Positions 1-62,307 of a stretch of DNA of 64,000 nucleotides are shown piece after piece. How positions within the stretch are numbered: the first letter of the stretch is position 1; each line of letters opens with the position of its first letter. The stretch is from the NCBI GenBank assembly GCA_977017645.1, contig OZ360223.1, positions 150,598,001-150,662,000 of the forward strand, in the 5' to 3' direction. The notes below the pieces were generated by a model, which worked only from the letters and a program-made list of their open reading frames with translations, did no database searches and was not told where the DNA came from. Source of the DNA: Torpedo marmorata (taxonomy: Eukaryota). The position numbers were made by a program, and so were the translations under genes.

Positions 1-196
1 ACTCAGCAGGGCTCGCAGCGTCCATTGGAGGTATAGATATATAACTGATGTTTTGGGCCTGAGCCCTTCTTCAAGGTATGAGAAGGGCTCATACCTTGAA
101 GAAGGGTTCAGGCTTGAATCTTCGGGTATATATTTTTACCTCCTATGGATGGTGCGAGACTTGCTGAGTTCCTCCAGCATTCTTGTGTTTTTACTA
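1..196. mobile_element. Palindromic Penelope-derived short element (two arms back to back, each with a degenerate hammerhead motif)
   Basis: gagcccttcttcaaggtatgag (61-82) is the near-perfect reverse complement of ctcataccttgaagaagggttc (88-109). Pairing extends outward (actcagca.. / ..tgctgagt). Same family as 30377, 45950 and 61683. The left arm is cut by the window edge. Confidence 0.8.
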
Positions 197-239
197 TAAG
201 ATAGTGAACCTCACAAATATAGACTTGGTTCCACATTTC

Positions 240-6574: not shown

Positions 6575-6840
6575 AAACGAGCTGCTGGAGGAACTCAAAG
6601 TGTCAGGCATCATTCAAGGGCAGAAATAGCGTTTCGGGGTGGGGCCCTTTATAGAGAAAAAAGTAAAATGGGGATATTACTTATATGAAGAGGGAAAAGG
6701 TTTTACTCTACCATAGTCTCGATAAAGAGTCCTGACCCAAAACGATGACTGACTATTTTTACACATGGATGCTGCCTGACACGCTGAGTTCCTCCAGCAT
6801 CTCATTGTTTTCACAAATTCCAGCATCTGCAGTCTTTACA
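6575..6840. mobile_element. Older inverted-arm Penelope-derived element
   Basis: gctggaggaactca (left arm) and tgagttcctccagc (right arm) are inverted. The hammerhead-region motifs are degenerate. Confidence 0.7.
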
Positions 6841-6851
6841 TTTTTTATTTA

Positions 6852-7155: not shown

Positions 7156-8865
7156 ACCTGTTACCTTTGCCACTGAAAAAGCGTAAGTCTTAAAGTCATA
7201 CTTGCACAGAATGATATAAATTTAGTAAATTATTCCAATCTTTAAGAATTCTGACGATCATTCAAAAGCTTTTAAAAATTCAAGATGAGTATTGAAATGG
7301 AAGGCAGTCAGTTAATATACAATTTAGCATCCTTTCTCCACACCTGCTTTATGAAAGGAATGATCCTAAAAGCAATTTCCACAAAGGAAAAACTGAAGTG
7401 CAAATTAAGTCAGGAAAAACAATTAAATAGTTTTTTCTCTCTCTCAAAATCTCCCTGCCCCCTTTAATTTGCACATTATCTTCTTGCGGTCTATACATTA
7501 CTTGCAAATGAACTGAGTTCTTGGTGAAGTTTATTTTGAATGATGAATTTCTGCAATAACCCTTTTCTGTGCATTAAAATAAAATTAAAATAGTTTCATG
7601 ATCTCAGACAGGGAAGGGAAGATGGTGGGAATAAAATGAACACCACTGACCTGAGAGACTATAATATACTAAAAATACTTTTTTATAAAGTTTCTTTCAC
7701 AAACTTGGCATTTCCTAAAGAGCTTTAAAACCAATAGTAAATTAGGTATTAGGGGCTGAAGAAGTGGGAAACATAGTTCAAGGAGTTTTGTGCAGAATTT
7801 AGGTAGTTGCCAATTAAAGAAAACTAAATGAATAAGAATCTGGATTGAGGGAGATTTATCAGTATAATGGTATGGAATATCCTCAGCTGAAAGGCCGAAC
7901 ATAAAACATGATACCTTAAATACTCAAACACCAGCAAAGCATTTTGTTTATCAGTATGATAAAAGATTATAGCAAGTTATTAAAACCACTTCATTATCAT
8001 CTGCCACATGCATAGAATAAGCAAAACCTCAATTTTTTTTTCCAATCCAAAGTTTATTTTTTGTTATATTTTTATCATACATAAATACACAGCTCAGTGA
8101 AAAGAAATCATTCGGTGGAAGACATGGTGTATTCTGCAAACTGAGCTGGAACTCTTGAAGATATTGGTGATGATGATTTGATATTATGCAACATTACTGC
8201 AGCAATTTAGAAACTAATAGAGTTGGGGCTAAGCCAGACACAGCAGCTGAATTCAGCACCAATCATGCACAGCAAGTTCAGTTGGAGCTTGGTGAAAAGA
8301 ATACTCCAACTGGCTCAAGTCCCAATAGCTTGAACCAGAAAGCATTTTTTATTTACTCCAACCAGGACCAACTATTCAGATAATTAATTTCATTCAATTC
8401 CTTGAACGAATCTTTCTTTGCATTAGGCTAGTTCAGCCTCTTCAGATTTCAGATCTACAGTCATCTGGTAAAAAGCATCTCAATTTGAAACATCTGTTTC
8501 ATGACAAACAGGAATTCTTATCTGTTTCAACAGTGAAAGATTTGGAAAGAATGTTCATTCAGTAATTATCACCTTTTAACCAACAAATCTCGATCACACA
8601 GATCAAGACTTTCAGGAAGTCTCAACAGTATATTTGTTAAAATCCTATTTCAGTGTTTCAATACATTGATCAATTCTAGACGAGGGTTCTATCATCGCAT
8701 GATTTGCGGTAACTATGAGCAAATAACATTAATTGCTGATGTCCACATATGAAAGCATGCAAACTGTAAATAAACATTATCTTTGCTCAAATCATCCTTG
8801 GAACATTACCTACCCCAGCCCTGTATGTCCAATGTAGATGTTATTGGTGCCGTTGCTAAAATCTG

Positions 8866-8944
8866 GGCCACAGTTGCATTCATTGTTCAGCGAGCTTTAC
8901 TATATAGTTAAACCCACCGACAGCAATGAATGTTGATTGTGACC
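8866..8944 (-). ncRNA. mir181b: pre-miR-181b hairpin (b-1-like)
   Basis: Minus strand 8934-8912 reads AACATTCATTGCTGTCGGTGGGT, the mature miR-181b-5p. The 3p arm CTCGCTGAACAATGAATGCAAC lies at 8894-8873. Basal stem GGTCACAAT / ACTGTGGCC as in vertebrate mir-181b-1. Confidence 0.97.
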
Positions 8945-9082
8945 TTTGCAGGAACTTGTTTTCCACGTTCCCCAAAATTATCTTTAATGACCGTGTTAGA
9001 ATCCATCATAACAAACAGAAAATAGGTTTCAGGCTAATTTATGTGGCCTGTGAAACGAGCCCAAAGGCAGTTGGAGGAGGCT

Positions 9083-9162
9083 GGCTACAAGGTACAATCA
9101 ACGGTCGATGGTTTCTCCAATAGCATCAAACTCACCGACAGCGTTGAATGTTCCCTAAAGCC
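9083..9162 (-). ncRNA. mir181a: pre-miR-181a hairpin (a-1-like)
   Basis: Minus strand 9152-9130 reads AACATTCAACGCTGTCGGTGAGT (miR-181a-5p). 9112-9091 reads ACCATCGACCGTTGATTGTACC (miR-181a-1-3p / miR-213). Basal stem GGCT/AGCC. Confidence 0.97.
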
Positions 9163-12100
9163 ACCAGTAAATAGAACAATTTAAAGTGAGGAAAAAGTCT
9201 GGTTCTGAGTGGGGTCTAATTCATTGTCTGTGGCATGCAATTATTTTGCAATTTTCTGGCACAAAGGTAGTCTAATCAGTTAAATCTGCAAAAAATGGCA
9301 AGAATTCAAAGCAAAGAGCTCACAAAGAACATTCTCCAGTTGAATAAATCATTTTAGAAATTTTTAAAATCTGTTTTCATGCAGAAGAAATCCCTTGCTA
9401 TTGCGAAGTGCATGGCCATAACAAAGAAAGGAAGCAATGATTGATTGCTTTCACTGAAAGACATTTTCCCTCAACCACCCCCCTTTCTCCCATCCCCACA
9501 CCTTTAACCCCCACCACCACTCCTATGCAGAAACAAAACATAAACCATAAAGAATGGAAAGTTTGGGAGTAAAAGGCAATTAAATGAACAATAGTGACAG
9601 CAAGAAATACATCTTACAAAGAAATTCCTTTTCAAATAGCATGCTTTTTAACTAACACACTGCATTGCCTGTGGATAAAAGTATGGAATCTGCACAAAGG
9701 AAATAGATGATTAATCATACAGACATTGAAAGGCTGTATTTAAAATGTTTGCACAAAGGCAGAATCCACATAGAATATTTAACCCACAGCAGTTATCATC
9801 AGCATGGCTTTTTGCTGTTAGATGGCATAAGAGGGAGACCACACCACATGCGAATGATGCTGTTTTGCATGATTACAGTCTGTTTATGGTAAAGTAGGTT
9901 AGCGTGACCTATTCAGGTTCTGCGTTTTATGTTACAGCTTGGCATCTGTTTAAATAGTTGTAAATTCCCTGTGTTTGCAACAAGTAAATACAAGGAGCTT
10001 CTTTTTCGAGCTAAATACAGAAAAGGCTCTGGCAGATTTTAAACTCAAACTGAGTAGTAGAAAAACCACTTGACTGAGGTCTAAAGAATGATGTGAGATG
10101 GATTTGTAATATAATGGCAGCAAGCAAGTACGACGGCAGTTTGACATACTTGTATAAAAGTCTTCTATGAACTTTTGTGTGACAATACCTTTCTTCCGTT
10201 GTAAGATGCTAAAGTGTGTGGGAGTGCAGGCAAGTGTGCATGATTGTATAGATTATAAGACACATTAAAAGCAGTATATGAAACCAAGAACATTGGACTG
10301 TACCTGTGAGTTGTTTGAACCCATTTTGGTTATGAGGAATGATATAAATTTTCCACTCGTATGGTTTGAGCAGAGTATAATTATAAAAGATTTGCAAATC
10401 TGTAGTTTCCACAACTGGGTCTTAAGGGTTAGGGTGACCCAGACACAAGAAATGTTTCAGTGCTTAGGTCAAGGATTAAACTGCTGCTGTAATAAACAAA
10501 ATGCAATGAAAACAACTTTATTGTAGTAAGTGTATCAGCAAAGTCGCAAGTACTTGCTTAGTTGTTTCAATTTGTTCAAGATTGTTGATGATAGGAAGAT
10601 GTTCAATTTCATTTGTAAAGTAAAACAACAACAAAAAATGCTTAAATGTTATTAACATGACCCCTGGCGCTCCCTGAACAATAATAAAACAGGATTGGCG
10701 GGGGTGGGGGGGGGGAAGATTCCAGGATACTTGGAAAATGTTTACTGCCATTGAGGAAGAGACTCCATGGAATCTGCTGCACTTTTCACAGGAGTTCTTG
10801 TCATAGAATGCAAGAAGAGTAGTAATGGAAAGATTTAAGTGATATTCCCAGGATCCTCTCTGCCATCCAAAATACTTAGAAATTAGCTATAAATGAAACA
10901 TGGATAGATTGTACAATGGGTTACAAACTGTCAACATTTGCTTTGGTAAGGATGATCAGGATGAATGTTGGCCCACATGCCAAGAGAAGTCCCTGCTTTT
11001 CTAAATAATGACAGATGATTGCTCTACAGTCTCTCTCCTCCCATTTGGTAGGTGATGCCTCTGACCGTTTGACACTCGATTGGCATTGAACTGGTGTGTC
11101 CACAATTCCTCAACGTCTCTGGTGAAGCCCCAAACCTTTTACTTCCCATTAGCAAATCAAACTAAAATAATGAATAACTTTTGAAAAGATTGCTGAACAA
11201 CATGCAAGTCCAATTGATAACAATTGTCAACATCTGTTCATTTTTTAAGATTGGAATTCTTTTTAAAAAAGGTAATCTTGACCTTTTGAATAACTGCTTG
11301 GCTTTGACATTGTTCAATAGCAAATGTTGATTCTCAGGATAACAGAAGATGTCAGTTCTCAGTGCTTATGTCATCGCAGTGGGATTTGATTTGTTTACTT
11401 CCTTCCAGCCAACACAGGGAGTAGCTTTCTTAATGATCAGGTTCAAATATAACTGCAGCTTGCACCCTAGGGTCAAGTCTGGCAAGGGTGAAGCAGCCAA
11501 GATAATGGCTTAAAGATGTGATTTCCCTTGTTTGCTTTTCTGGAAAGTTTTCAGTATAATGCACAAGTGACTGACTTTCATAATTAATTAAACCATATTC
11601 ATGAACACTCAAATGTCAAATGGTCTCCAAAATACATTGAACACAGTAAATAATCCAGTCAAAATTGAATTATTGCCCTTCCTGGCTGGAATCAGAATGA
11701 AAATGTTGATTGGATGGAAATGGAGGGAGGAGAGTGATGATAATAATTTGTTGGAGCATAGTTGAGCAACCATTTTGGAATGATTTCAATTGTCTGCTTT
11801 GCACATTAGACCTGCAAGCTTTTATTATGTTTGGCAATTGGAACTTTAAAATAATACCCTGTTTAGAGAATTGATTTATTTTACATTACATTGTGTATAT
11901 GCAGAACTCCAACTCTATTGAAATTATATGACAGAAGATTCAGGGAGGAGCTGGTGGGTGTGAGTTGGTGGCATGTTGCCTAATTTGGTTCACACTGGCA
12001 GGGCAGCCCAAGTTGTCTGAAGCTGTGAGCTCGGTCTGATACTGAATGCACAGAGCGACTTACTTCTAAATGGCATTTCCTCAGTGAACGTCCACTGTTC

Positions 12101-13394: not shown

Positions 13395-13592
13395 GGTAAA
13401 GGTAAAGGTTCCATTACTGTCACCTAATACTACATTTAGAATGTAACATACATGAGGGGCGCTACTTTGTCCAGCGCCCCTCACAGAAACCTACAGCACA
13501 TGATGTTCCTTGGCGGTCTCCCCTCCAAGTACTGACCAGTCCTGTGCCTGCTTAGCTTCTGAGATCACACAATCCCAGTCGTATTCAGTCTA
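13395..13592 (-). mobile_element. 5S rRNA-derived SINE (SINE3 type)
   Basis: Minus strand 13592-13490 follows 5S rRNA: gatctcagaagctaagcagg (box A) ..cagtacttggaggggagaccgcc (box C) ..gtgctgtagg. It is followed by a non-5S body and a (ccttta)n tail. Confidence 0.9.
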
Positions 13593-13697
13593 AAGGTAAA
13601 GGTAAAGGTTCCATTATTGTCACGTAATACTACATTTAGAATGTAACATACATGAAATTCTTTAATTTTTGTCTACCGTAAGGCAGACAGAGGGTCT
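13591..13697 (-). mobile_element. Second, 5'-truncated copy of the same SINE tail
   Basis: ggtaaaggtaaaggttccatta.tgtcac.taatactacatttagaatgtaacatacatga is repeated from 13395. Confidence 0.85.
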
Positions 13698-17050: not shown

Positions 17051-18149
17051 TTAATTCCCTAACTTTCTCTCCCAGAGTCAATGGTCCCTGCAGCTGTATG
17101 GATTCCATGCATTCTATACTTTGTAGGTCTGTTTATCCAGTGAATATGAGCAATTGAACCTTGGGAGGCATCATGTCCCAGCTTATTCCTCCCTTTGCCA
17201 AATTTCCAGCAGGACGCAGAGGCCAATTGTGGGTGTCCTGCTGCTAACCCAGCTGAGTTTGGCTGATTCCATTCAGAAATTCCATGACCAATTCCCAATG
17301 TGATCTATTGGCAAGGGGAGTATTTTTGCTTCAAGTCCAGTGCAGAGATTTTACATAATGTGCTCCTTCATCATGTGTTAATTACAGTGAAAGGCAGAGT
17401 AGTAATCTGACTCCATAAGGGTGAAACATTAAATGGAAGTATGCAGCCTGCAATATTTCCTTTCAAAGAGCTGAAAGGTCTATCTGGAACTGCACCCACC
17501 AATGTTGCAGCCTTTTAATGCACACCCCAAAAGATTTTACTCACAGCGCTGTGATTCTTTAATTTACACACTATTTGAATGTGGTCACTTCAAATAAACA
17601 AACTGTCCATGAAGTGTAAAATTTGATTTCATTCCCTTCACAACTAGTTATTTTCTCCCCAAATCAGTTAGGTGACTATTTCTTTCATCAGATGCCACAT
17701 TTGCCCAGTCACGTCTCAAAGGTTACACAGCTATCTCCTGCAGAACATTTCATATTACTTCAGACCTCATGAATCCTATCAGGTTTCTGCAAGATGATAA
17801 CACACAAAACCCTTCGGAAGCCTAAAGTGATCGTTTTGGAATGTTTAACATTAGGAATAGAAAGCACTTGATATTTGCAGTCAGCTCACCCTCTTAAATA
17901 TTCATGAGTTCAGATTTGCAGTGAGGTCACTTGTGTCTAGTCGTTGAGATCCATCTGCTAGTTATCAGCAACTACGTTCAGTTAACCAAACGGTGTACAA
18001 AATCTATCAACAGGAAGAGAAACTCCATTAAAGGAAGCTGAACAAGCTGGTGTTATGTCCTCATCCCTGTGGTCAATGATCCCGCTGTGTAGCCATTAAA
18101 TAATTTAGTGTGATAACAAGAGGCTTTGCTAATCTATCATGCTCTAAAG

Positions 18150-18508
18150 CAGTGGTTTTCAAACTTTTTCTTTCCAATCACATACCACCTTAAGTAATCC
18201 CTATGTGATTAGTAAAGGATTAATTAAGGTGGTATGTGAGTGGAAAGAAAAAGTTTGAAAACCACTGTTTTAATCATACCTAATTGACTCGTTATGTGCA
18301 CGGTTTCATAACTCCAAAGGAAATGGACCAATGACAATTTTTCTCAAGCAAAATATTTCAGTAACAATTGGGTCTAGAGCAGTGGTTCTCAACCTTTTTT
18401 TCCCCACTTACATACCACCTTAAGTATTTCCTAACTAATCACAGAGCACCTATGGCATAGGGATTACTTATGGTATGTGAGTGGAAAGTAAAAGTTTGAA
18501 AACCACTG
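18150..18508. mobile_element. Composite hAT (Charlie-like) MITE
   Basis: Two palindromic units (18150-18267 and 18380-18508) with cagtggtt(t/c)tcaa TIRs. An 8-bp TSD ctctaaag/ctctaaaa flanks the whole. Confidence 0.88.
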
Positions 18509-19994
18509 CTCTAAAAGGAGCTCAGCGTCTTCAAATGGGCTTCAGAAATGCTTAAATTATGCTAGTTATAGAAAGCTCTTTATATACTGCCTGTGAATCA
18601 TAAAGAACTGTTTTAAGATGAGCTGTTTTCCTTGTGGAGAGTTAATGAGCTTCAAGAAAAACCCAAATGAGAAAAGGCTTTTGACATTCACCTGGAGCAA
18701 TGTTGTTTGGCTGTAATCTATACTGAAAGAAAGCCTGACCTTACCTTGGGTTTCATTTCCTACATTCCTGTTGTTTGCAAGGAAAGTGCATAAGTAAAAA
18801 TTGTTTCCACATCAGGTTCAATAGTGACTTTCAAAAGGGAGTTTTCTTCGAGGAAGTAAAAATTCAGAGCAAGAGTGGAAAATTAGGTAGGTCATTTCTC
18901 ATTAGTATGAGGAAGATGGTTTGAATGGACTTCCGTGTTGCAAGATTCTGTTACTCAGTGCCCTAGTTTCTTGGAAACTATTAGCACAGAAACTGAGCAC
19001 AGAAAGTATTGAATGCAAACTGGGACACTATTAACGGTGGAACTTTTGATATTTTTTGTAGGTATTTTGCATTCAGAGGCAGCACAATAATTACAAAATG
19101 GCAAAAACAAAATGGCGAAAAGTATTCCATTGTAAATACTCATACATTAGAGAGTTAAAAAAGATTAGACTAAGAGTTAACAGACTGAACAGGAACATAT
19201 GTTAACCAGCCTTACGATGGCTTGTTCAACTCTGAGCAAATATGGACAAAATGTTCATCAATATTTTTTAAGTCGTAGAAATCACCAAATTGATTCTCAG
19301 GAAATGGCATTAAAACACTTTAATGGAATAAACAGAGGCACACTGACCAATTTAGCAAAAGAAGGTGACTTCAAAGTATAAAGAATTAGTTTCTGACGGG
19401 AGTAATTTCTCAAGTGGATTAGCCGCCCATCATTAATTGCACCCAAGGCTTTCTCGCTTTGCAGCAGTCTGCTTTCTTTGATCTGTGAGATTAGACTAAT
19501 TGCAACTGTAAGATGTTGCATGGTACACTCAATGCCTGAACATGGAGATCTGTATTGAAATTAAACCTGTCAAGCTGCATGATCAAACTGGAACAAATTC
19601 AAACTGAAGAGGAATGCAGGAATTGGAACTACAAAATGAACATCATTGAAATGTTAAATGATACAACCATCTGACTTTGTGTAAGTCACAATATTTTCTT
19701 TGAAATATAATGCTTAATTTATAACTGATGAAAAGCAGGTTATCAGACAGTGCAAATCTAAAATCATGATGTGGTACTTCATTCTGGTGATGAGACCTCT
19801 TCCAAAATTGATTTTCATGTTTTTCAGATTGTTTCAACTGACAAGACTGTCAAAACACATAACTATTTGACACAGTAATATTTTTTAAATATGTGAGAAT
19901 CAGTGATAAAGATATCCCACCAATAAAGCTGTAATCATACACATTTTTTTGGGGTTAACTAAAGCAATTTAAATATTCCTTGTTGCTTTTGTCG

Positions 19995-23385: not shown

Positions 23386-24369
23386 CCGTATTTGATGGCA
23401 TATAAAACCCCCCTTTTTTTCCCCAAAAAATCACCTCAAAAACCACCCCGGGTCTTACACGCGAAGGTGACATTTTGGTTCCGCCATTTTGGTGCCACCA
23501 TTTTGGGCACCGAGTGGAGGCTTCCATCCGCAAGATGGCGACAGGAGGAAAGCGCTCAAACTACTCACCCAGCTTCAAGAATCCCGCAGAGGTGCTGCGG
23601 CTGTCCAGGAAGCGGGCCCGCAGCTTCGTGGCCCATGCTTTCCGGAGTCACCACCGCTGCCGCCCCCGGTAACAAGGCTCACTCTCTCCCTCCTTCCCGC
23701 CCGCCCGCTCCCTCCCGCTCGCTCCCTCCTGCTCGCTCTCTCCCTCCCGCCCGCTCACCCTCTCCTTGCCGCTCGCCCTCTCCCTCCCGCCCGCTCACTG
23801 TCTCCCTCCCGCCCGCTCGCTCTCACCCACAGTGCTTTGAGGGGAGCGCTGGGCTTCGATGATCAGGCTTTGTTCGATGAGCACAGACCCCCGAGCAAAT
23901 TGAATGAGGCGCGGGGGCGGGTGGCAGTGAGCGAGCGGCCTGTCAAGCTCAGCTGTACAGGCCGCTCCCCTCACTGCCACCCGCCCCCGCGCCTCATTCA
24001 ATCTGTTCGGGGGGCCGTGCGTGTCGAACAAAGGCTCAGCGTGGAGTCTGATCACCGAGGCCCAGCGCTCCCCTCAAAGCAAGCGATTGATCATCTGCTC
24101 CCCGCGACGGTGGGCCTGGGCCCTGCCCGTTGTCCTGGCTTCTCTCCATCCCACCCTCGCGCGCCCACAGGTCCCGTCACGCCTGTCAATCAATTAGCGT
24201 TTGGATGGTGGGGGGGAAGCAGCCTGAGCCTCGGCGTGTGGCGGGCAAGAGGACGTGTTGCTGCTGTGAAGGTAAATACACTAAAACAAAATTTTCCTGA
24301 AATCTCACGCTAAAAATGGTGGGGGGGGGGTCCTATATGCCAGTCGGTCCTATATGCCGTCAAATACAG
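23386..24369 (+). mobile_element. Non-autonomous Tc1/mariner (pogo/Tc2-like) element, GC-rich
   Basis: TIRs ccgtatttgatggcatata / tatatgccgtcaaatacag with a TA duplication. Contains a pyrimidine-rich simple repeat (23680-23826) and a long inverted repeat (23834-24080). Confidence 0.85.
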
Positions 24370-30376: not shown

Positions 30377-30791
30377 AGTGAAACACGAAAGTCTGCAGAC
30401 ACTATGGTTGTAGTAAAAACACAGAAATGCTGGAGGAACTCAGCAGGTCTCGCAGCATCCATAGGGCTCATGCCCGAACCATCAGATAACTTGAAGAAGG
30501 GCTCAGGCCTGAAACATCAGTTATATATCTTTACCTCCTATGGATGCTGCAAGACCTGCTGAGTTCCTATTGCATTTTATGTTTTTACTACAATCACAGC
30601 GTCTGCAGACTTTCATGTTTCACTCCATTCAGCTGCTCCACTGCAAAATCTCTTCGAGGGATGCCTACCCTGAAGAAGTTCTCCTCCTTATCTTGAAGAA
30701 GGGCTCAGGCCGGAAATGTTAGTTATGCATCTTTACCTCCTATGGACGCTGCAAGTCCTGCTGAGTTCCTCCAGCATTTCTGTGTTTTTAC
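30377..30791. mobile_element. Cluster of Penelope-derived arms (inverted pair plus an extra direct copy) with hammerhead-like motifs
   Basis: gagtgaaacacgaaagtctgcagac (30377) is inverted to gtctgcagactttcatgtttcactc (30601-30625). ttgaagaagggctcaggcc motifs occur at 30491 and 30693. Confidence 0.82.
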
Positions 30792-30908
30792 ATGTTCCAC
30801 AAGGAACCACACTGGCAAGCTGATTGTCTGCAAAGCAGAGGGAGCAGGAAGCCACAGACATATTAAGCACCTGGCTTTATTTGAATACTATGTCCCTCTT
30901 TTCCACAG

Positions 30909-32177: not shown

Positions 32178-32927
32178 TATGTCTTGTCCAGCTTTATGTT
32201 CTACTTTAAGTCAACTAAAGGTTTCAGATGACCCAGATCCAACCACAGAAATATGAACAGATTAAAAATATAGATTTACGAGTGGAATTAAACCCAATAA
32301 ATCCACACAATTTACAGCCTTGTAATGGGATTTCAATTTGCAAAGCTCTCTAATATTGAAGATAGGCAAGAAGCTAGACTGCAATAGCATCTCAATCATG
32401 GTGCAGCTCATACTGTACTCACTAGACTTGAGTAAGGAGATTGTTGCATGACTGGGTAACTTACAAAAACAATGGGGAGCACCAGAATTGTTTCAAAGAA
32501 ATGATCACTTGGCAATGACTAATTCCATCAATGCCTTGAGCGGATTGTTTTAACCAAGGAATTGTGCATGCCTGGATAACTCCACCTTCACTTCACACAG
32601 CTTCCAGGACTGTTGTAGATTTATTTGCCTACATATGTTTCCCTTTGAAAATAGCAGAAACATTTTCAGTCTGGACAAGAGGTCAATGGAGTTAACAATT
32701 AGTCAGAATGCTGCAGGAGATTCCACTTAAAGCAGGTTGCAATGCACTCAAGATCAATCTTGCTGTGTTTTTGTTCCAAGTAATGTACTTGTTTTCCTTT
32801 AGAAGTAGTGGTCCAAGAAATGCATCACTCCTTTTCCCTATTTGCTGATGTGTAATTTAGTCAAGACAGTTTTTTCCATACGTATTATCAGAAAGGAGAA
32901 ACTCTTTCAAAATCTTGTGTTATTCTT

Positions 32928-35900
32928 TTTTTTTAATTATTTTATTTAAACTTTTAAATCACAAAATACATAAAATAAAATATATAATCATCAAAATACA
33001 TGTGATACATTTTCACCCCCCCACTTCCCTCCCCTCCCTAACCCCCCCATCCCCACTAATCTAGTAATATAAGTAAAAATAAAAATAAAAATAGAAAAAA
33101 AAAGAAAGGAAAAGATAGTATAAGGGAAATATCATCTATAAACTAATTCTATTACGGAGGTCAAGTATGCCAGTAGATCCGATATCTAGAGATCTTCAAA
33201 TCCCTAAACCCACAGCTCTCATATATGGGCTCCAAATTTTCAAAAAGAAATGATATTTATTACGTAAATTATAAGTAATTTTTTCCAGTGGTATACACGA
33301 ACGAAGCTCTGCATGCCATCTTTCTAATCCTAAATCTAAATCAGATTTCCAAGTAATAGCAATGCATTTTTTCGAAACCGCTAAAGCAATTCGTAAAAAT
33401 TCTACTTGAAACATATTTAATTTCTTTTTAATACTAAATTTTCTAATATCTCCAAATAAAAATAACATAGGATCCATTGGAAATGTAATATTAAATACTT
33501 TATCTAAAAAAATTTTAACTTTCAACCAAAAATCTTGAATCTTTGGACAAAACCATGTAGAATGAACAAAAGAACCTTCCTCATTATTGCATCTAAAACA
33601 TAAACCTGATAATGTCGGATTAAATTTCTTTAGTTTTTTAGGTGTTAAATATAATTGATTAAAAAAAATTGTATTGTACTAATCTATACCTAACATTAAT
33701 AATCTTCGTCATACTTAATTTACATAATTCTTTCCAATGATTTTCATCTATTCTTACATTCAAATCTAATTCCCATTTTAATCTTGATTTATGAATTCCT
33801 ACTTTAGGCATTTTCCTCTGAAACAATTTATACATTTGAGAAATAAATTTATTAACTTCTCCATTAGTAACTAATAACTCTAATTCATTTTGTCTTGGTA
33901 AAATCAAAGCATGACCTAATTTCTCGATTAAAAAAGCTTTAACTTGATAATAAGCTAAAAATGTATTATCTAATATATTAAATTTATCTTTCATTCTTTG
34001 AAACGTAATAAATCTTCCAGCTTCAAAACAATCATTAATCTTCTTAATTCCTTTTTGAAACCAAATTTTAAATAATTGATTATTAATAGTAAATGGAATA
34101 AGTCCATTTTGAAATAAAGGCATCCTTGGAGAAATCAATCCTTTTCCTCCTATTTCCTTATCCGTCTTATTCCATATTTCTAACAAATGTTTAAAAATAG
34201 GCAAATCTTTCTTTCTTGTTGATATTAATTTAGAATCCCATTTATAAATAATTTCTTGTTTAGCATCATCACCTATATTATTTAATTCTATTTTAATCCA
34301 AGCAGAAGTTTTATTTGAATCAAAAAATTCATTAACAAATTTTAATTGGGCTGCTTTATAATAATTTTGAAAATTAGGAAGTTGCAATCCACCCAACTCA
34401 TAATTCCAAGTTAACTTTTCCATGCTTACTCTTGCTAACTTTCCTTTCCACAAAAATTTCCTAATAATAAAATTTAAATCTTTAAAAATTTTTTGAGGAA
34501 TTCCAAAAGGAATTGATTGAAAAAGATACTGAACTCTTGGAAAAATATTCATTTTAATACAATTTACCCTTCCCATTAAAGTTATGGGTAAATCTTTCCA
34601 ATTCTCTAAATCTTTCTTTATTTTCGCAAATAATGGTAAATAATTTAATTTATATAAATTTTCCAATTTTGTATCAACCTTAACCCCCAAATATTTAATT
34701 CCTTCTTTAGCCCATTTAAATTGTGTAATTTCTTTACATCTAGTATAATCACCTTGAGATAAAGCCATTATTTCACTCTTATCTGAATTAATTTTATATC
34801 CAGATATTTCACCATATTCTCTTAATATAATAGATAATTGTTTTTTTTTTGTTTTTTTTTTTAATATTTTATTTAAATTTTTAAATCACATATTACATAA
34901 AATAACTTGCATATAATTCTTAAAAAATACATGTGATTACATTTTCTCCCCCCCTCATCCCACCCTCCCCTCCCTAACCCCTATACCCCCCTAATCTAAT
35001 TAAAATATATATAAAATAATAATAGTAAAGAAAAAAGAGAAAGTAGAGATAGAAAGATAGAGCGAGGAGTCAATAAGCTTAAAAAAAAAACACTGATATA
35101 TCTTAGAGGTTGTTTCGCCGGTAGGTCTAATATCCAGAGAATTCACAATGTTAAACCCATAATCCTCGTATATGGGCCCCAAATTTTTAAAAAAGAATGA
35201 TATTTATTTCGTAAATTATAGGTAATTTTTTCCAATGGTATACATGACCGTAACTCTGCATGCCATCGTTCTAAATTTAAATCAACATCCGATTTCCAAG
35301 TAATAGCTATAAATTTTTTTGAAATTGCTAATATTATACGTAAAAATTCTACTTGATACATATTCAATTTATGTCTAATACTAAATTTTTTAATGTCTCC
35401 AAATAAAAATAACATAGGATCCATTGCAATTTCAACATTAAAAATTCTTTCTAAAAAATTCTTAACTTTCAACCAAAAATCTTGAATCTTTGAACATGAC
35501 CATGTACAATGTACAAAAGATCCTATTTCAGTTTTACATCTGAAACACGTATCTGATAACACTGGGTTAAATTTCTTCAATTTTCTAGGTGTCAAATACA
35601 ATTGATGAAAAAAATTATATTGTACTAATCTATATCTCACATTAATAACTTTTGTCATACTTAGTTTACATAAATCTTTCCAATGTTTTTCATCTATATT
35701 AACATTCAAATCAAACTCCCATTTCAGTCTAGACTTATGCTCTCCTACCTTAGACATCTTTCTTTGAAACAACTTATACATTTGTGATATAAATTTATTA
35801 ACATTAACTTTGGTAATTAATAACTCCAATTCACTTTGTCTTAATACTGTTAATTCATTCCCTAATCTTTCAATCAAAAAAGCTCTAACTTGAAAATAAA

Positions 35901-36552
35901 CTAACATTGTATTATCTAATATATTAAATTTTTCCTTTAACCTCTGAAAGGTAACAAATTTACCTGCTTCAAAACAATCTTTTAATGTCTTAACTCCCTT
36001 TAAAAACCATAACTTAAGTAATTGATTATCCATAGAAAATGGTAAAAGTGGATTCTGATATATTGGTGTATTTAAAGAAATTAATCCTTTTTGACCTATC
36101 TCCTTATCTACTTGCGACCAAATTTCCAACAAATGTTTAATAATTGGTGTTTTTTTCTTTTTAAGTAATAATAATTTAGGATTCCATTTATAAATAATAT
36201 CTTCTTTATGTATTTCTCCCATATTATTCAATTCTATATTAATCCAAGCAGAAGTTTTATTCAAATCAAAAAATTCATTAATATTGAGTTATAATAGATA
36301 ATTGTTGAAGTGACATAATAGATTTTGTCATATATATCAATACATCATCTGCAAACAAACTAATCTTATGTTCTTCCATACCAACTTTAATACCCACTAT
36401 TTTAGGATCTTTTCTAACTAATTCAGCCAAAGGTTCTATTGCCAAAACAAATAAAGCTGGTGACAGGGGACATCCCTGTCTCGTAGAACGTGTCAAAGAA
36501 AATTTTGGCGATATTTGTCCATTTGTAATTACTTTAGCTGATGGTTCTTTAT
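32928..36552 (-). mobile_element. 5'-truncated L1-clade LINE (host copy) split by a second L1
   Basis: ORF2 RT motifs RQGCPLSP and LFADD (36278-36552) continue into 34842-33196 (KYLG, NCIKMNIFPR, C-terminal Cys-rich region). One frameshift near 33660. 17-bp TSD aatcttgtgttattctt at 32911-32927 and 36553-36569. Confidence 0.93.
34843..36289 (-). mobile_element. Second 5'-truncated L1-clade LINE (guest copy)
   Basis: Open ORF2 C-terminus 35143-36264 (CFRC..GSFVHCTWSC), a G-rich 3' UTR and a poly(A) tail. 17-bp TSD tataatagataattgtt at 34826-34842 and 36290-36306. Confidence 0.93.
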
Positions 36553-40702: not shown

Positions 40703-43133
40703 TTAGTGCAAATGTCCTTCCTGTGTGAACAGCCACTCCGGAGGGTAAATATGCAAATTGATGATGGGAAATTCTCGGTATTTACGTCTAAAAACCATAA
40801 ATGATACCAATGCTGAAATGTCTCGCAAACTAGTGAAGTTTGTAAAGGCTGTAAGAATATAAAATATGATAAACCCCAACATATAACAGATGATGAGAAA
40901 CTTTAATCCCAGTGGTACAGTTGAAATCAAAAGGCAACTCTGACAGAATTGCTGTGACATACAATACTGCAAAATTACAGAAGGCTGATGAAATAAATGA
41001 CGCCTCTGGATTCAAGAAACAATTAGCTCCTTTTGTTAATTTCCTCCTCGCAAGTCCTCTCTCTGAGCCATGACACATGGGGAGCAGAACGTTGCAGACT
41101 TTATTCCATTTCTCGGGGCTTCCAAAAGTTTAGAGTAGAGTTCTACAGAGAACTCCCAAAGTAACTCATTCCCTGGTGCCGTGAAAGAATCATTACTTCA
41201 TTCCAGTTTTTAAATGCAAGCAGATCATATTTAAATCGAAACACTAAAAATTGGACTTTTGCTTTTTGAGAGCAAAGATAACAAGCATTACAAAATGAAA
41301 GGGATGTTAATTAGACGAGTCCTTCTGCAGTCTCAAGCTGAATGCACATCTTAACCTTTGTGAGCCCTTCTAGTCCCGCAACATTGATCCCATGGAAATT
41401 GGAGATGATGAACTTGCTGGGTTTAGGGTTGGAGGAATCAGCCTCTTTTGCTTTCCTATTGTTGGCTTAGGTTCAAAGGCTGATCAATCAGATATGCTGG
41501 AAATTTGGGGGTCAGGGGGAAATCACAATCATGATTGAGATGGATGGAATGGAGGTGTATCCATTTTTTGAGAACAGAGCCATCACAAAACCAAAGGAAT
41601 GTACTTCTGTCATCTGAAGCTGAATGCATATTTTTGAGTCAGCAAAAAAAAATCCTCAGGTATTTTAAAGATCCTTGCAATACATTTTTGCATTGCAAGA
41701 AAAACAAAGAAATATCCCATTTAACAGCTCTTACCAAAGATGCCATTAGTAAACATTATGGTTACAAAATTATTTGCATTTAAATGCAATGTGATATTCT
41801 GTAATCTTCCATTCCTCTGCAAATGTTGTTGATGTAAAATCAGAACCAATATTAATAAAAAGAAACATGATAAAGCTTTTCTAAGTTCTAATGTCGCACT
41901 GCTTATTTGTCTTGTATGTGATTGAAAATTTGTTTCTTCTTGGATTGTTCACAACATACAGACAAACATACAAATACATATGTAAAAAATCTTTTTGGTT
42001 CTTAATCCCTTTCTCCTCTCGTGGTAATGTTTGGGGAAAGCCTCCTTCAGCCCTGAGAACTCTGTATTTTTCTACATTAGTCATTTTCTTCATTTCACCT
42101 TTAACTGTTCAGATCCCAAACTCTAGAATTCCCTCCCTAGATACCCTTTTCCCTTCAAGACCTTTCTTATAACTGACCCCCATTCACATTTTTGTTCATC
42201 TGCACTAAATTTCCTTGGTGCCAAATTTTGTCTGATTGCACGCAAAATTCATTTTGTTTTTTTCTACTCTGATACAACATGCTACATAAAAGTAAATTGT
42301 CAGATTGGACATGAACACAATGACAACTAATTGATCTATTCCTAACTTCTTGTCATATGTTCCTCACAATGGATTCCAGGAATCAATCATTCCACGAGTC
42401 CCATGTAGATTCCACTGCTTCAGATTTAAAAATTCTAGAATTTCAGCATCACAGTGCAAAGGCATCCTGCCAGATATGTATGCCAACTGCTCCCTCCAAG
42501 ATTTTGAGAGGAAGTAATTTGAAGAGAACAGAGTGGCTCCATTAGATAGGGTGTTGAATTTATGATGTACAATTAACCTGTTCCTGGTGATGGCAAGGTA
42601 GATAGCCCAGTAAATTTGAGCACCATGCTCAAATGATTTCTGCTACTGGGCTTATTTTCCACTTTTCCTGTGTTTATAATGTTCTATGACAATTAACAGA
42701 AGGTAACCAGTAAGCGGAGAAAGCGGAAGGGGAGCACAATGAAGAATGAAAGTGGATGCTTGAAGGCATGGTGCAAAAAAATGTTAACACCCAATTAAAT
42801 GTTCTTAATCACAGTTATTTAGTATTCATCTGTCCAGATAATAAAAGGAAGAGCATGTTAAAATTGGTTTATCTCTTTAATGATAGTAAATTAAAAGTGC
42901 AATCAATTTGCTTCTCAAAGATACTTCCTTCCTTCTTGTAGTGCTTCAACCAAAGCATCTTACTCTGGGAGTTCCTCAGTTTCCTGCCATGACCCCAACC
43001 AGCATCCCTCCACCCCGCCCCATGGAAATTCCAAGGGTTTTTTTTTTAAGCTTTGAACCATTTCATCTGGTTCAAGGAAAATAGCAGGGAGAGGACCTTA
43101 CAGTTCCATCTGCTCAGCCAATAACATTGCCAC

Positions 43134-43264
43134 CAGTGTTCCCTCTAAGCTGTGTGCGCACAAACAGTCTGTGTGCGCGCACAAAGGCAATCAATGTGCG
43201 CACATTTGTGCGCGTGCACACTGAACGTTTGTGCACGCATGCACACAAGTTAGAGGGAACAGTG
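43134..43264. mobile_element. hAT MITE
   Basis: TIRs cagtgttccctctaa / ttagagggaacagtg, 8-bp TSD attgccac/attgccat, and a gtgcgcac-rich interior. Confidence 0.9.
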
Positions 43265-44274
43265 ATTGCCATGCCATTGGGCTTCCCAATTTGACGCTCA
43301 CAGATGAGGACAAGTTTGAGCAAGCTTATTCCCAACTGGGGAACATAGTCTGATCATATCTGTGGCTCGCATTAGAAACAGGCTCCATTGGTACCCAGGG
43401 CTATGCACTATTTTCATCAAGGAACAAATAGTCAGCCAGCAGGGAAGCCCATGTGTCATTTCTCTCCTTGAGTATGGCAAAGTGTGTTAATTGCTCCATG
43501 TTAATTGCAGCAGAGGTGTCAACAGTCTTGAGTAATGACATGGAATCATTTTGTCACATACGATACAATCGACCCCAGATTCACTTCCATTGGATAAAAC
43601 AGAAGATCAGGCAAGACACATCAACAGTCTATGCAATATTGCCTGTGTCCATACCCAAATTTAATTTCACCCTAAACTTTTGGGTAAACATGATTATGTC
43701 CTCAGGTACACATCATAAAAAAAGCTATTATGAGTTGCAAGGAACTATTTCAGAGCAAAGCTATTGTTTGGCTAGATACTGATGAAGATGGAATTGATCA
43801 CCTGGTATTTAAATGCTGTAATAGATGCGTTCAATACTTACCAAAGACTACAGGTTTCAAACATGTTCTGGGGAAATCAGTGGGAGTGTATTTTTTTTGT
43901 TCAGCAATGCCAAAATAAATTGGCAATTCCCTATACTGTACTCCATTCATTGTTTACTCTCACTACCTGTTAAAACAGTAAGAACTAAACAGGGTTTGAA
44001 GTGGACCACCAATGTATGATTGCCTATTTTGTTCTGTTGCACAAGATTAATTCCTCCACCCCTTGGAGCCTTTTTAACAAAGGGAATTAAAGGTCCTCTC
44101 TGATTTAATCATTTTCAAAGTTTGACTGCTTACATGTAAGGGATACAAAAATATTTCATTAAACATCAGAACAAGTCAGAAATCGGAATTAATCTAAGTG
44201 TCCTCAGTGACAGTATTGTGTGCTTTTATTGACTTTTTAAAAATATATTTCCACTCCATTAGTGAGTACTTTAA

Positions 44275-45721: not shown

Positions 45722-46838
45722 CTTCTTTTTCAATATTTTTATTGGTTTCATCAAGTAAATGTTACATAGGTACATAATAATAAAATAAAGTATTAACAAA
45801 TTACATATAATAATAAAAATGGTGGTAAGCCCTACGTTACATTGAAAAGTTAAAAAAATCCTGAAAAAAAACACTACTAATTATCAATCCCCTCCCTTCA
45901 GAGGCTGCTGGCTGAACATAAACAGCTCACTACCTAATAATAAAGGTAAAAAACACAAATGCTGGAGAACTCAGCAGGTCAAACAGTGTCTTTTATGTAG
46001 CAAAGGTAGAAATACATAACTGACGTTTCAGGCTTGAGCCCTTCTTCAAAGTAATAATAAAGGTAATCAATGGGATCAAAAACCAACAGTTAATTAATCT
46101 TACAAATTTTGAAAATAATTAAGAAAAGAACCCCATAAGGAAACAAAATTAAGATTCATTTCAGTAGTGGAACATCTAATTTTTTCAAAAGTCAAACATG
46201 CCATCATATCAGACAACCATTGTGTGAGGGACAGCATCTTTCCATCTCATTAATATGGCCCTTCTAGCGATAAGGGAAGCAAGAACTACTACATGGGATT
46301 GTGAAGCAGTCAATATTAGACCCATTGGCTCACTTATTCCAAAAAAAGCAAGGATTTGGTGTCAATTGGACTTTGGAATAGTGAACCCAGTGTACTACCT
46401 TAAATTGTAATAATGAGTGTCTAGCACAAAGAGAGGATGAGTGCAGTCGCTTCAAAATAGAGTCCCATGCAGTTTTCAGAAATTAATTGTTGAAACTCTT
46501 GCTCCAAAAGTTTTTTTTATTCTGTCCAGGGAACTATCCCGAGAACTTAAACGTAGATAATAAAGGACTGATAACATCTGTTTATGATCAGGTTTGAAAT
46601 TATAAATCTTCCCTATCATATTAGGTTCCAATTCTTGAGGGAGCCTCAAAATTAAAGAATTCAAGAAGCTCCTAACCTGTAAATAACGAAAAAAGTGATG
46701 TTTAGATATTATAAATTTAGTAGATAATTGTTCAAAAGAAGCAAGATTTTGGTCAATAAAAAAATCCAAAAAGGATTGGATACCTAGATTTGACCATTGA
46801 TGGTAACCGATATCTTGAACCAAAGGTTAAAAGGAATA
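45722..46838 (-). mobile_element. Degraded L1-clade LINE 3' fragment
   Basis: ORF 46476-46823 (SFEQLSTKF..HFFRYLQVRSF) is L1 ORF2-like, with a T-rich tail at 45722. Confidence 0.8.
45950..46051 (-). mobile_element. Penelope-derived short element with hammerhead motif, inserted in the L1 3' region
   Basis: 15-bp direct repeat taataataaaggtaa at 45935-45949 and 46052-46066. Minus strand reads ACT TTGAAGA A GGGC TCAA GCCT GAAA C GTC AGT. Confidence 0.85.
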
Positions 46839-59531: not shown

Positions 59532-59696
59532 ATTCCCATCTCATTTCTGTGGCATGAAAGTTACTTTACCCTATCAGCTTATACCTGAGGATTGTTTAGT
59601 CTTGCTGCATGCAGGTATTTATGCTTCATTTACTGAAGAAATGCAAATAGATTTGAACACTTCACAATCAACAAAGATCCTCACATCCAAGAAATG

Positions 59697-59905
59697 CAAA
59701 CACTGCAAATGCTGGAATCATGAGCAGACAAAGAATTGCTGGAGGAACTCAACAGGTTAGACAGCATCCCAGCATGCATGGCTAGAAATGGTCAGTCAAC
59801 ATTTCTGATCTTTATAAAAGGACCAGACCCGAAAGGTTAACTGAACATTTCTACTCATGAATGCTATCTGACCTGTTGTGTTCCTCCAGCAATTCTTAGT
59901 CTGGT
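59697..59905. mobile_element. Older inverted-arm Penelope-derived element
   Basis: aagaattgctggaggaac and gttcctccagcaattctt are inverted. A degenerate gacccgaaa motif lies near the centre. Confidence 0.75.
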
Positions 59906-61469
59906 CTTGTATCCTTACATTTGACTTTTTAAATGGAACAGTGAAAGCATGACTTAATAAGCAGATTTTAATAAGCAGATAGGATAAACTAAGTCTTATG
60001 ATGGCTCCTTGGCACCATAATCAAAATAATAATGGACATCTGCATGAAGGAAGATTTACACTTCCTTTTACATGCGTTAAATGGTGAGTTTACCACTGGC
60101 ATATGACATTGCAGATCACATTTATTTCCACTGAGAAATGTGGTTAGTTTCTTAACAATACATTTTTATGTTATTGGAATCACTACATTCTGACTGAGTG
60201 GAACTTTGATCAAAAGTTTTCCCCTCTCCTCAATCCAGTCTCCAGAGCTTTCATGCTTATTATTAAGTAGCACTGTCTGAGAAGAAGCATTTTGCATGCC
60301 CTTTATCAACTGGAGACTGCAATTCTTCATAAATGGATCTTTCATTCAAAATAAAGTGTTAACTTGGTGAATTCCTTCTAGATTTTAGCAAGTTCCTTAA
60401 AATAATAACTAATAGCAGCAGTGAGGGAAATATGTAGAAAAGGTTTGACCCCACGATTTATCAAATCCTTGTCAACATGTAAAATCGTGAAACCACATTA
60501 TTAAAGCATATTAGATTAATGTATTCTCTTGTTCCTTTCATCTCATCAGACAAGACAAATAGTTTACCCAAAATTATTTTGACAATATTCACAGCCCAAA
60601 TATTCCATGAGTGAAATTTCTTATTGAATGGTCACACGTGGATAACGCATGTTCTTTGCTTTGTACATCTCAAAGTTCACCACAACAAAGTGAAATAATT
60701 AGAACAGTATTCTCATTATCCCCTATTAAACCCCATTCTAAAATGGTTACATTATATTTAATATTGTACAACGTACTACACTAGCTCTATTGTCTGCAGT
60801 GTGAAAGATCCATATCTTGTGAGCATTGCAGGGTTGAAATAGTTCAGAAAGAGTCAGGAATGAAAGAATGTAAATGCAGTGTCACTGGGTTCAATAGAGT
60901 AATAATGACTTATGATTAGCACTTATTGGACAGACATAAAATTAAAGGTCCCAAATGAATAATACAATGTGACAAATTAAATGACAAATCCAATTGGCAT
61001 TTCCTTTGGTATTCATTCATATCAGGCGACTGAACTTACTAAGTAAAATCATCAGAATGTAGTTCATTGTCTTGAAAGTTATTCAATAGCACAGGTATAC
61101 AAGAAGCCCTCAAAAGGTGAACACACAGGTATGGTGCCCATGATATCACTCAGAGCATTGTTGTAAATACTTTAAAAGGGTACAAAGGTTTGCTCACTGA
61201 CCTGCTTAATAGTTGTGACTTGAAAATAGACAGCTACATCTGCCTTAAAGAATGCAGCAACTTTCGCGGAGACAAAATTGTTTAAACTTTCAATGCTTAA
61301 CAGCTCAGCAATCTTTCGCTTTTCGTATCATTGTGGGAATACCTTACATTTAGAAAGTGCCCTCCACAACCTCAATGCACTTCACAGTATGTTTTGGAAG
61401 CATGGTTACAGTTGCAAGATGGGGAAATGGAGAAGAATTTTCACACTGTTAGATGCCACAAATAACACT

Positions 61470-61645: not shown

Positions 61646-61682
61646 TGCAGATTGTAACGTCACACAACAGTTGCATCAATGT

Positions 61683-61723
61683 CATACTTTGATGAAGGGC
61701 TCAAGCCCGAAACGTCGGTTATG
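61683..61723 (+). ncRNA. Minimal type I hammerhead ribozyme-like motif
   Basis: CATACT - TTGATGA - A - GGGC TCAA GCCC - GAAA C - GTC - GGTTATG gives stem I, core, stem II and a loopless palindromic stem III. Predicted cleavage is after C61716. Confidence 0.65.
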
Positions 61724-61831
61724 TATTTCTACCTTTGCTACATAAAAGACACTGTTTGACCTGCTGAGTTCTCCAGCTTTTGTGTTTTTTTACTACATTA
61801 TTACGGTGTCTACAGATTTTCGTGTTTACTT
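61683..61831 (+). mobile_element. Penelope-derived short element beginning with a minimal hammerhead motif
   Basis: 13-bp direct repeat gttgcatcaatgt at 61670-61682 and 61832-61844. The body is shared with the copies at 88, 30491 and 45950. Confidence 0.88.
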
Positions 61832-62307
61832 GTTGCATCAATGTTGCTTGACTTGATCTGGCACTATTTATCTGCTATGGTATTTAATGCACGTACAAAG
61901 CTAACTTCTAGCCTGTTAAGAAAATTATTCTTGGATGGACACGATTATCATCTTTGGATAAGTTTTCTTTCATCCTGATAGCTTGCTTTCCCACACCCTA
62001 TAATTTTGAGGACAAAAAGGAACTTGTAAATTTATCCACCTTAGGCTTTCTTAGCAGTTGTAAGGCTGAATAAATGAGAAATTAGTCCAAGATCTATGTC
62101 TGTCACAAGATTTCTCAAAAGCTATAATTGGCAGGGAGTTAAAAATAAATTCATTTTTTGGAAAACTCTGAAAAAGATCACATTCCTCCCCAGCCTGGAA
62201 ACAAGTCAAGTAGTGTGAAGGCACTATGAATTATAACACAATATTGCAGAGGTAAATAAAAGATTTACCTGGTTGATACATTTAAAAAAAAAAAGCATGA
62301 TGAAATT

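What the first reader, a model, noticed from the sequence alone, without database searches (positions are those of the whole stretch)
61670..61844. Mobile 100-150-nt element whose boundary is a minimal hammerhead ribozyme
Seen: the element starts exactly at stem I of CATACT-TTGATGA-A-GGGC TCAA GCCC-GAAAC-GTC-GGTTATG and has a 13-bp TSD. The copy at 45950-46051 ends at the same motif on the minus strand, has a 15-bp TSD, and shows a stem I change that keeps pairing (ACT/AGT). At least six family loci occur in 64 kb. Known: Penelope-like elements carry minimal type I hammerheads with a palindromic loopless stem III; U at position 3 and an extra A after the CUGANGA box depart from the canonical core. 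Inference: a very high-copy, non-coding, ribozyme-bearing retroposon family mobilised by Penelope RT. It could cut host transcripts, including the pri-miR-181 if the minus-strand copy lies within it. This is the best candidate for an under-described system in the window.
Basis: partly seen in the sequence, partly recalled or inferred. Interest (0 to 1): 0.72.

Follow-up and report, generated by a model that had tools for sequence, protein, structure and literature searches.

The report
Hammerhead tip of Neptune retrotransposon
This 149-base insert is the cut-off tail end of an ordinary, very abundant Penelope-like jumping gene whose complete copies sit elsewhere in the same genome; the one unusual point is that such tail ends start far too often at the foot of a built-in, likely crippled, self-cutting RNA motif, which likely marks where some of the element's RNAs begin.

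Summary
The motif, the 13-bp TSD, the second copy and six related loci are real. The element is not a separate non-coding family. It is the last 149 nt (pseudo-LTR tip with minimal hammerhead plus about 37-nt tail) of an autonomous Neptune-type Penelope-like retrotransposon. Intact 3,849-bp tandems with a 1,158-aa RT/GIY-YIG frame exist in this genome. 70,916 copies run on upstream of the hammerhead into the native 3' UTR. Short copies carry the same haplotypes as long ones. The hammerhead departs from the canonical core (U3 opposite G8 in 75,967 versus 685 C3 matches), and no excess of 5' ends was found at its predicted cut site, so cutting of host RNA is unlikely. 5' ends pile up at the foot of stem I, about 30 nt upstream of the cut site (12 of 87 unbiased copies; about six-fold over two control windows genome-wide). 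The pile-up is absent when copying passes the same sequence a second time (0 of 40). This points to a template RNA end there rather than an RT stall. Known kind of element, with a modest, testable mechanistic clue.

The parts
61670..61682 (+). left target-site duplication (13 bp)
   Evidence: identical to 61832-61844
61683..61831 (+). 5'-truncated 3' tip (pseudo-LTR end plus tail) of a Neptune-type Penelope-like retrotransposon, subfamily A
   Evidence: first 118 nt are 100% identical at 20 other loci; 96-97% identical to the intact tandem unit L158, subfamily B
61683..61688 (+). hammerhead stem I, 5' strand; site of the 5'-end pile-up; with 61682 it also fits an initiator-like motif (consensus recalled)
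61689..61696 (+). hammerhead core box with U at position 3 (opposite G8), plus the unpaired A between 9 and 10.1
   Evidence: sequence; 75,967 U3 versus 685 C3 matches
61697..61708 (+). stem II, 4 bp with 4-nt loop
   Evidence: 95.8% of cells paired in 30 copies, little covariation
61709..61716 (+). GAAA box, loopless palindromic stem III and predicted cut site after 61716
   Evidence: sequence; no excess of 5' ends here
61717..61723 (+). stem I, 3' strand with one bulged base
61795..61831 (+). about 37-nt 'tail' between the two preferred 3' ends; in intact units it leads to the ORF start 39 nt further on
   Evidence: 10 of 30 loci end 36-39 nt short and 18 of 30 at or just past the tail end; junction sequence
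61832..61844 (+). right target-site duplication (13 bp)
45946..46052 (-). second young copy (subfamily B), tail-less, also starting in stem I; up to 15-nt TSD including microhomology
30381..30792 (.). older family: inverted pair, then pLTR-tail-ORF-start remnant (30646-30685) followed by a second pLTR tip
1..206 (.). older family: head-to-head inverted pair meeting just upstream of stem I
6575..6845 (.). distant, decayed relative: inverted pair
59689..59909 (.). distant, decayed relative: inverted pair

Best explanation
The insert is the last 149 nt of an autonomous Neptune-type Penelope-like retrotransposon, likely copied into an AT-rich site by that element's own endonuclease and reverse transcriptase, and it likely stops at hammerhead stem I because the template RNA ended there, not because the ribozyme cut there. 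Shown: sequence identity with the autonomous element; intact tandem units; two preferred 3' ends about 37 nt apart; TSD; a 5'-end pile-up at -150 to -142; no pile-up at the predicted cut site (-115). Inferred, by analogy to the anole element (PMC11167929): the GIY-YIG domain nicks the target, RT starts internally at the tail, and copying runs towards the RNA 5' end. Most copies truncate at random. I favour a pool of RNAs whose physical 5' end lies at about 61684, most simply a pLTR transcription start (about 50%), otherwise nuclease trimming back to a folded or protein-bound domain (about 25%) or a stall (about 20%). The hammerhead is likely weak or inactive as a catalyst and kept as a structural or protein-binding domain.
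For: Identity: 23 of 28 best loci with the core continue upstream into a shared 3' UTR. 3,849-bp head-to-tail units carry an open 1,158-aa frame with RVT_1 (E 3.4e-6) and GIY-YIG (E 5.6e-4) matches, both just below Pfam cut-offs. 292 homologs were found, the best from Chiloscyllium at 70%. 70,916 matches have native upstream sequence against 6,677 without. All 12 hotspot copies are subfamily A or B, with no shared private change. Pile-up: 12 of 87 ends in 9 nt, reached in 0 of 200,000 simulations; 6,677 against 1,074 and 1,129 in control windows; 18 of 55 older-family copies also lose similarity within 10 nt of the core. Template end rather than stall: 12 of 71 on first pass against 0 of 40 on second pass, Fisher p=0.004, with similar later survival (17 of 59 and 9 of 40, p=0.64). 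In two short arrays copying stops at -145/-146 or at -150 on both passes (L171, L183). Weak ribozyme: U3 is fixed even in intact units; hammerhead mutants do not affect insertion in vitro (PMC11167929).
Against: If the usual mRNA started at stem I, full-length copies should begin there; 0 of 46 ORF-continuing long copies do. So a second, longer or circular template pool must be assumed. No RNA reads were available to show a start or an end. No clear excess of an untemplated G (cap signature) was seen by eye in the 100 listed junctions or in 30 loci. The initiator-like match is weak: 5 such matches lie in the last 400 nt. Neptune versus Nematis was not tested by tree. The control windows differ in acceptance rate and include internal indels.
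Confidence: 0.85

Rival explanations
1. A separate SINE-like, non-coding retroposon of about 150 nt with its own master copies, mobilised in trans by the Neptune protein.
For: Roughly 12,000 copies start at stem I (estimate, corrected for pattern acceptance), many with clean TSDs. Solo pLTRs can mobilise sequence in trans in rotifers (PMC3846280, passages). Some hotspot copies could come from short RNAs fired by solo pLTRs.
Against: No private mutations; both subfamilies give short and long copies. 5' ends are spread over -150 to -144 and lie on a continuum from 35 to over 3,200 nt. TSDs occur at all lengths. Older families show the same boundary.
Confidence: 0.08
2. RT stalls or is released at the folded or protein-bound hammerhead domain on a long template, so the boundary reflects structure rather than an RNA end.
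For: The boundary coincides with the 5' foot of stem I in several families whose stem I sequences differ. Long copies show that templates often extend past it.
Against: No stops on the second pass (0 of 40) although later survival is similar. Stem I is weak, and the hammerhead fold is not the predicted minimum (-7.7 against -11.8 kcal/mol).
Confidence: 0.2
3. Ribozyme self-cleavage defines the unit, and inserted copies cut host transcripts such as pri-miR-181.
For: The motif is complete apart from U3, and stem I covaries between families (C-G in 13, U-A in 11 of 30 at one pair). The minus copy lies 37 kb upstream of mir-181 on the same strand. The anole motif cleaves when its protein is present (PMC11167929).
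Against: The cut site is 33 nt inside the element; 0 of 87 ends lie at -113 to -117 and only 1,074 fall in that window. Array units run -216 to +149 and similar, not cut site to cut site. A single minimal hammerhead showed no cleavage (PMC4209133). Eight of nine frog dimers did not cleave (bioRxiv 2026.07.22.740005). C3-G8 pairing is part of the active core (PMC3088659). Extent of the pri-miRNA is unknown.
Confidence: 0.04

Closest known systems
Neptune-clade Penelope-like retrotransposons (Craig et al. 2021, bioRxiv 2021.04.23.441226, passages read)
   Same: Single ORF with DKG motif, RT, CX2-5CxxC linker and C-terminal GIY-YIG with CCHH; partial tandems; inverted 5'-truncated arm; 30-40 bp tail on one end; hammerhead in the pLTR.
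   Different: Long Pro-rich and repeat insert in the N-terminus (1,158 aa); U3 hammerhead core; a 5'-end pile-up at stem I that the passages read do not mention.
PAc / Poseidon of Anolis (Frangieh et al. 2024, PMC11167929, main text read)
   Same: Two preferred 3' ends that define the tail, internal start near the pLTR-ORF junction, hammerhead cut site not marked by ends.
   Different: Other clade; there the ORF starts within the hammerhead and the core has C3-G8; here the ATG lies 39 nt past the tail, and several junctions show microhomology with the target.
Minimal hammerheads of metazoan PLEs (Cervera and de la Pena 2014, PMC4209133, results and discussion read)
   Same: Loopless palindromic stem III, base between 9 and 10.1, thousands of single motifs 'probably related to truncated PLEs'.
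   Different: Their core variant is the compensated U3-A8; here U3 faces G8, stem II has only 4 bp, and the count is about 76,000 or more against 2,000-9,000.
Non-LTR retrozymes (Cervera 2020, PMC7229834, passages; Li et al. 2026 preprint, parts 1-3 of 5)
   Same: Non-coding, hammerhead-bearing, derived from PLE pLTRs; this family also yields short tandem arrays (L163).
   Different: The window copy is a monomer without a canonical core or tandem partner and has no lineage of its own.

Membership tests
EN+ Penelope-like element | single ORF with RT and C-terminal GIY-YIG | tested here: met
   1,158-aa open frame; RVT_1 at 646-828 and GIY-YIG at 1062-1098, both slightly under Pfam cut-off; homologs carry the same domains
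EN+ Penelope-like element | tandem or partial tandem pLTRs, inverted arm, 30-40 bp tail on one end | tested here: met
   3,849-bp tandems; 23 of 88 loci have an upstream inverted arm ending at the T-run before the tail; two 3' end classes
EN+ Penelope-like element | hammerhead motif in the pLTR | tested here: met
Neptune clade | CX2-5CxxC zinc finger in the RT-EN linker plus CCHH in EN | tested here: met
   C-X4-C-X2-C before the nuclease, and C, C, H, H residues around and after the GIY-YIG box, read by eye from the translation
Neptune clade | RT phylogeny placing it in Neptune rather than Nematis | not testable with these tools
   no labelled reference set; Neptune is the vertebrate clade with this linker in the Li et al. 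survey
Minimal type I hammerhead | stems I and II, GAAA box, loopless palindromic stem III, NUH site, base between 9 and 10.1 | tested here: met
Minimal type I hammerhead | Watson-Crick pair 3-8 (C3-G8 or U3-A8) | tested here: not met
   U3 with G8 in 285 of 290 descriptor hits in fetched loci (sample chosen with U3 patterns) and 75,967 versus 685 genome-wide
Minimal type I hammerhead | covariation in stems | tested here: inconclusive
   stem I pairs change on both sides between families (0 of 500 shuffles reach the score) but these are few events among related, hand-picked copies; stem II is nearly invariant
Minimal type I hammerhead | self-cleavage | not testable with these tools
   needs bench assay
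SINE-like non-autonomous family / non-LTR retrozyme | own lineage with diagnostic mutations | tested here: not met
   12 hotspot copies share haplotypes with 46 ORF-reaching copies
SINE-like non-autonomous family / non-LTR retrozyme | tandem units each with a complete hammerhead, bounded by cut sites | tested here: not met
   window copy is a monomer; arrays elsewhere have other borders

The most novel reading that the evidence does not exclude
Neptune elements of cartilaginous fishes make a retrovirus-like 'strong-stop' DNA. RT starts at the tail nearest the RNA 5' end and runs off at a start site at the foot of the hammerhead. The product is either integrated as a 150-nt copy or jumps back onto the RNA to build tandems and concatemers. 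The hammerhead has lost catalysis in the most successful lineage and serves as the boundary and binding domain. Retrozyme-like arrays are then born in one insertion event by repeated jumps, without ribozyme cutting.
Probability: 0.3. Interest if true: 0.6.

Novelty: new member of a known kind. Interest (0 to 1): 0.3.

Why it matters
As an element it is ordinary: hammerhead-bearing, truncated Penelope-like tips are known. Its value is as a test system for two open questions, namely what the hammerhead does in endonuclease-bearing PLEs and how pLTRs, tails and tandems arise. These give direct predictions for RNA-end mapping and in vitro TPRT.

Tried and rejected
Rfam scan: no hammerhead family hit; Rfam models miss this minimal form. 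PDB sequence search with the ORF: 0 hits. RNA runs: no RNA holder listed, only contigs; four runs laid show related sequence in other organisms but cannot show ends or expression. Simple model that all mRNA starts at stem I: rejected, 0 of 46 long copies start there. Intron acceptor at stem I as in Drosophila Penelope: no AG there. Type III hammerhead cutting at the CUC before 61684: no stem III partner (by inspection). Cap-derived G at junctions: no clear excess, by eye only. Cofolding two monomers gave a stem II duplex, not the stem III dimer, and is uninformative. Earlier scan findings: none by sequence or words. The paper on position 3-8 exchanges (PMC1986816) is not held, so the size of the U3-G8 defect rests on recalled knowledge and on PMC3088659 and PMC11167929, which do not test that variant. 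Literature searches found no report of a stem I truncation hotspot or of this family; Repbase and Dfam were not available, and paper supplements were not opened, so either may already be recorded.

Full report
Numbering. Positions are given as distance from the element's 3' end (61831 = -1, 61683 = -149, predicted cut between -116 and -115). Searches use a subfamily B reference that is one base shorter. Hammerhead numbering follows the papers cited; the initiator consensus is recalled.

1. Observation. The second copy (46052-45946, minus strand) is 93% identical over 119 nt and lacks the tail. Its 15-nt repeat includes bases shared with both element ends. Six related loci lie in the window, four from older families. 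The window has mir-181 hairpins at 8864-9163 on the minus strand and no Rfam hammerhead hit. The genome is 6.2 Gb, and the best protein homolog is from a bamboo shark, so the host is likely a cartilaginous fish.

2. It is the tip of an autonomous element. The first 118 nt match 20 other loci at 100% among the 40 candidates scored of 558. Of 30 loci fetched, 28 held the exact core; 23 of these continue upstream in a shared pyrimidine-rich stretch and 5, including the window, start in stem I. Upstream lies a 3' UTR and the end of an ORF. Downstream of the tail, 361 exact matches continue into an ORF start. Four spaced pairs were fetched: L158 and L160 hold head-to-tail 3,849-bp units with an open 1,158-aa frame, while L161 and L162 have frame breaks. 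The protein has DKG, an RT core, a C-X4-C-X2-C linker and a GIY-YIG domain with C, C, H, H. Pfam gives RVT_1 E 3.4e-6 and GIY-YIG E 5.6e-4, both under cut-off; 292 homologs pass E 1e-10. These features match Neptune or Nematis as defined in bioRxiv 2021.04.23.441226 (passages). The window copy is 96-97% identical to the pLTR tip of L158.

3. PLE signatures. An exact 31-nt tail pattern occurs 5,461 times. I fetched the first 95 of the 100 listed places. Seven lie in a satellite array carrying one amplified insertion and were left out, and L097 duplicates L096, leaving 87 (88 rows). 5' ends run from 35 to 3,211 nt, 8 of them censored at the locus edge. TSD-like repeats of 9-19 nt were found for 24 of 88 rows, on copies from 35 to 2,254 nt. 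23 of 88 have an upstream inverted arm that ends before the tail, often as long as the forward arm. In 30 further loci, 10 end 36-39 nt short and 18 end at or just past the tail end. This is the tail and inverted-arm pattern of PLEs and fits the two internal RT start sites shown for the anole element (PMC11167929, main text).

4. No separate family. 70,916 matches have the native 8 nt upstream of the core, against 6,677 where both outer positions differ. With a rough acceptance correction about one copy in seven starts at stem I. Of 12 hotspot copies, 6 carry the exact B haplotype, 3 the exact A haplotype and 3 single variants; the same two haplotypes make up 34 of 46 copies that reach into the ORF.

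5. The boundary is real but is not the cut site. 12 of 87 ends fall in -150 to -142; no 9-nt window reached 12 in 200,000 simulations; 0 of 87 fall at -117 to -113. Genome-wide, matched 7-nt windows give 6,677 at stem I, 1,074 around the cut site and 1,129 just upstream. These counts include internal indels and both arms of palindromes, and the last pattern accepts fewer flanks. By eye, 28 of the 100 listed cut-site matches begin at -115, but about half look like point mutants or small deletions of full copies, which leaves no clear excess over neighbouring positions. My hand tally of 76 independent strings peaks at -147 (19), -146 (17) and -148 (13). Among 55 older-family copies with relatives at hand, 18 lose similarity within 10 nt upstream of the core, 8 at 11-25 nt and 29 beyond; at least two of the 18 are not simple truncations.

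6. What makes the boundary. In 64 loci that contain the tail-ORF junction, 46 run at least 760 nt into the ORF, so RT likely reached this pLTR after copying a long stretch. 40 of them reach -142 and none stops in the hotspot, against 12 of 71 on first pass (p=0.004), while later survival is alike (p=0.64). A structural stall should act on both passes, so I favour a template end. The same result rules out stem I as the start of all templates. Short arrays support copying to a template end and jumping back: L163 holds about ten 100%-identical 363-bp units (-216 to +149) in two inverted arms, and L171 and L183 stop at -145/-146 and -150 on both passes. An initiator-like motif centres on 61684, but 5 such motifs lie in the last 400 nt, and no cap-type G excess was evident. 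Drosophila Penelope has an internal promoter with its start 46 bp before the intron (PMC2377424, passages), which is not the same position. The cause is therefore inferred, not shown.

7. The ribozyme. The extra A and loopless stem III are standard for PLE hammerheads, and single motifs did not cleave (PMC4209133, parts 1-2 of 4). U3 facing G8 is not the compensated variant reported there or in PMC3088659 (section 8). It is present in 75,967 matches against 685 with C3 and in the intact units, which in subfamily B also have G-U at the base of stem II. In 30 hand-picked copies from several families, one stem I pair is C-G in 13 and U-A in 11, the outer pairs also change on both sides, and stem II is 96% paired but nearly invariant. 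These are few independent events. So the fold has been conserved, but catalysis is doubtful in the active lineage. This agrees with insertion being unaffected by hammerhead mutations in vitro (PMC11167929) and with 8 of 9 frog dimers not cleaving (bioRxiv 2026.07.22.740005, parts 1-3 of 5). Against this, the anole motif does cleave with its protein, and that possibility is untested here.

8. mir-181. The 61683 copy is antisense to the miRNA strand. The 46052 copy is on the same strand 37 kb upstream. Whether the primary transcript reaches it is unknown, and a lone U3-G8 minimal motif is an unlikely cutter.

9. Verdict. A new member of a known kind: a 5'-truncated Neptune tip. The stem I boundary, its first-pass specificity and the uncompensated core did not turn up in five literature searches. 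Repeat libraries and paper supplements were not seen. Interest 0.3.

Noticed in passing
L163 (G000:C5:20309500-20316500), 1299-5207: About ten 100%-identical 363-bp units (-216 to +149 around the pLTR-ORF junction) in two inverted arms, one ending at the tail and one 37 nt short. Looks like a retrozyme-like concatemer made in a single insertion by repeated template jumps; borders do not match the hammerhead cut site. Shorter arrays at L143, L152, L171, L175, L183, L195.
   Followed up: partly
L098/L099 and L096/L097 (G000:C1 about 59.28 and 60.17 Mb): One 146-nt hotspot copy inserted in a short-period satellite and amplified with it (8 copies in 20 kb, 2 more 0.9 Mb away).
   Followed up: partly
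L119 5' junction: Two telomere-like TAACCC units sit between the inverted arm and the forward copy.
   Followed up: no
L158 (G000:C25:62082000-62091900) and L160: Intact head-to-tail tandems of the 3,849-bp unit; the ORF has a variable repeat of about 19 aa and a long Pro-rich stretch in its N-terminal part.
   Followed up: partly
loci: Inverted arms often match the forward arm in length, and a minor fold-back hotspot sits on the native 8-nt palindrome at about -163 to -156, consistent with cDNA self-priming.
   Followed up: partly
3' junctions (e.g. L040, L081): TSD starts share up to 6-10 nt with the element's own continuation past the tail, suggesting primer annealing to the RNA, unlike the non-homologous start reported for the anole element.
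   Followed up: no
window 8864-9163, minus strand: mir-181 pair (two Rfam hits above gathering score).
   Followed up: no
window 23833-24081: GC-rich (75%) near-perfect inverted repeat, also 18145-18513 and 43118-43280 palindromes; probably other mobile-element remnants.
   Followed up: no
window 13488-13609, minus strand: Weak 5S rRNA-like match (32.9 bits, below gathering), flanked by a 61-bp direct repeat at 13395-13455 and 13595-13655; possibly a 5S-derived SINE or pseudogene.
   Followed up: no
window 32926-34335 and 34854-36281: 1.4-kb direct duplication at 78% identity in an AT-rich stretch.
   Followed up: no
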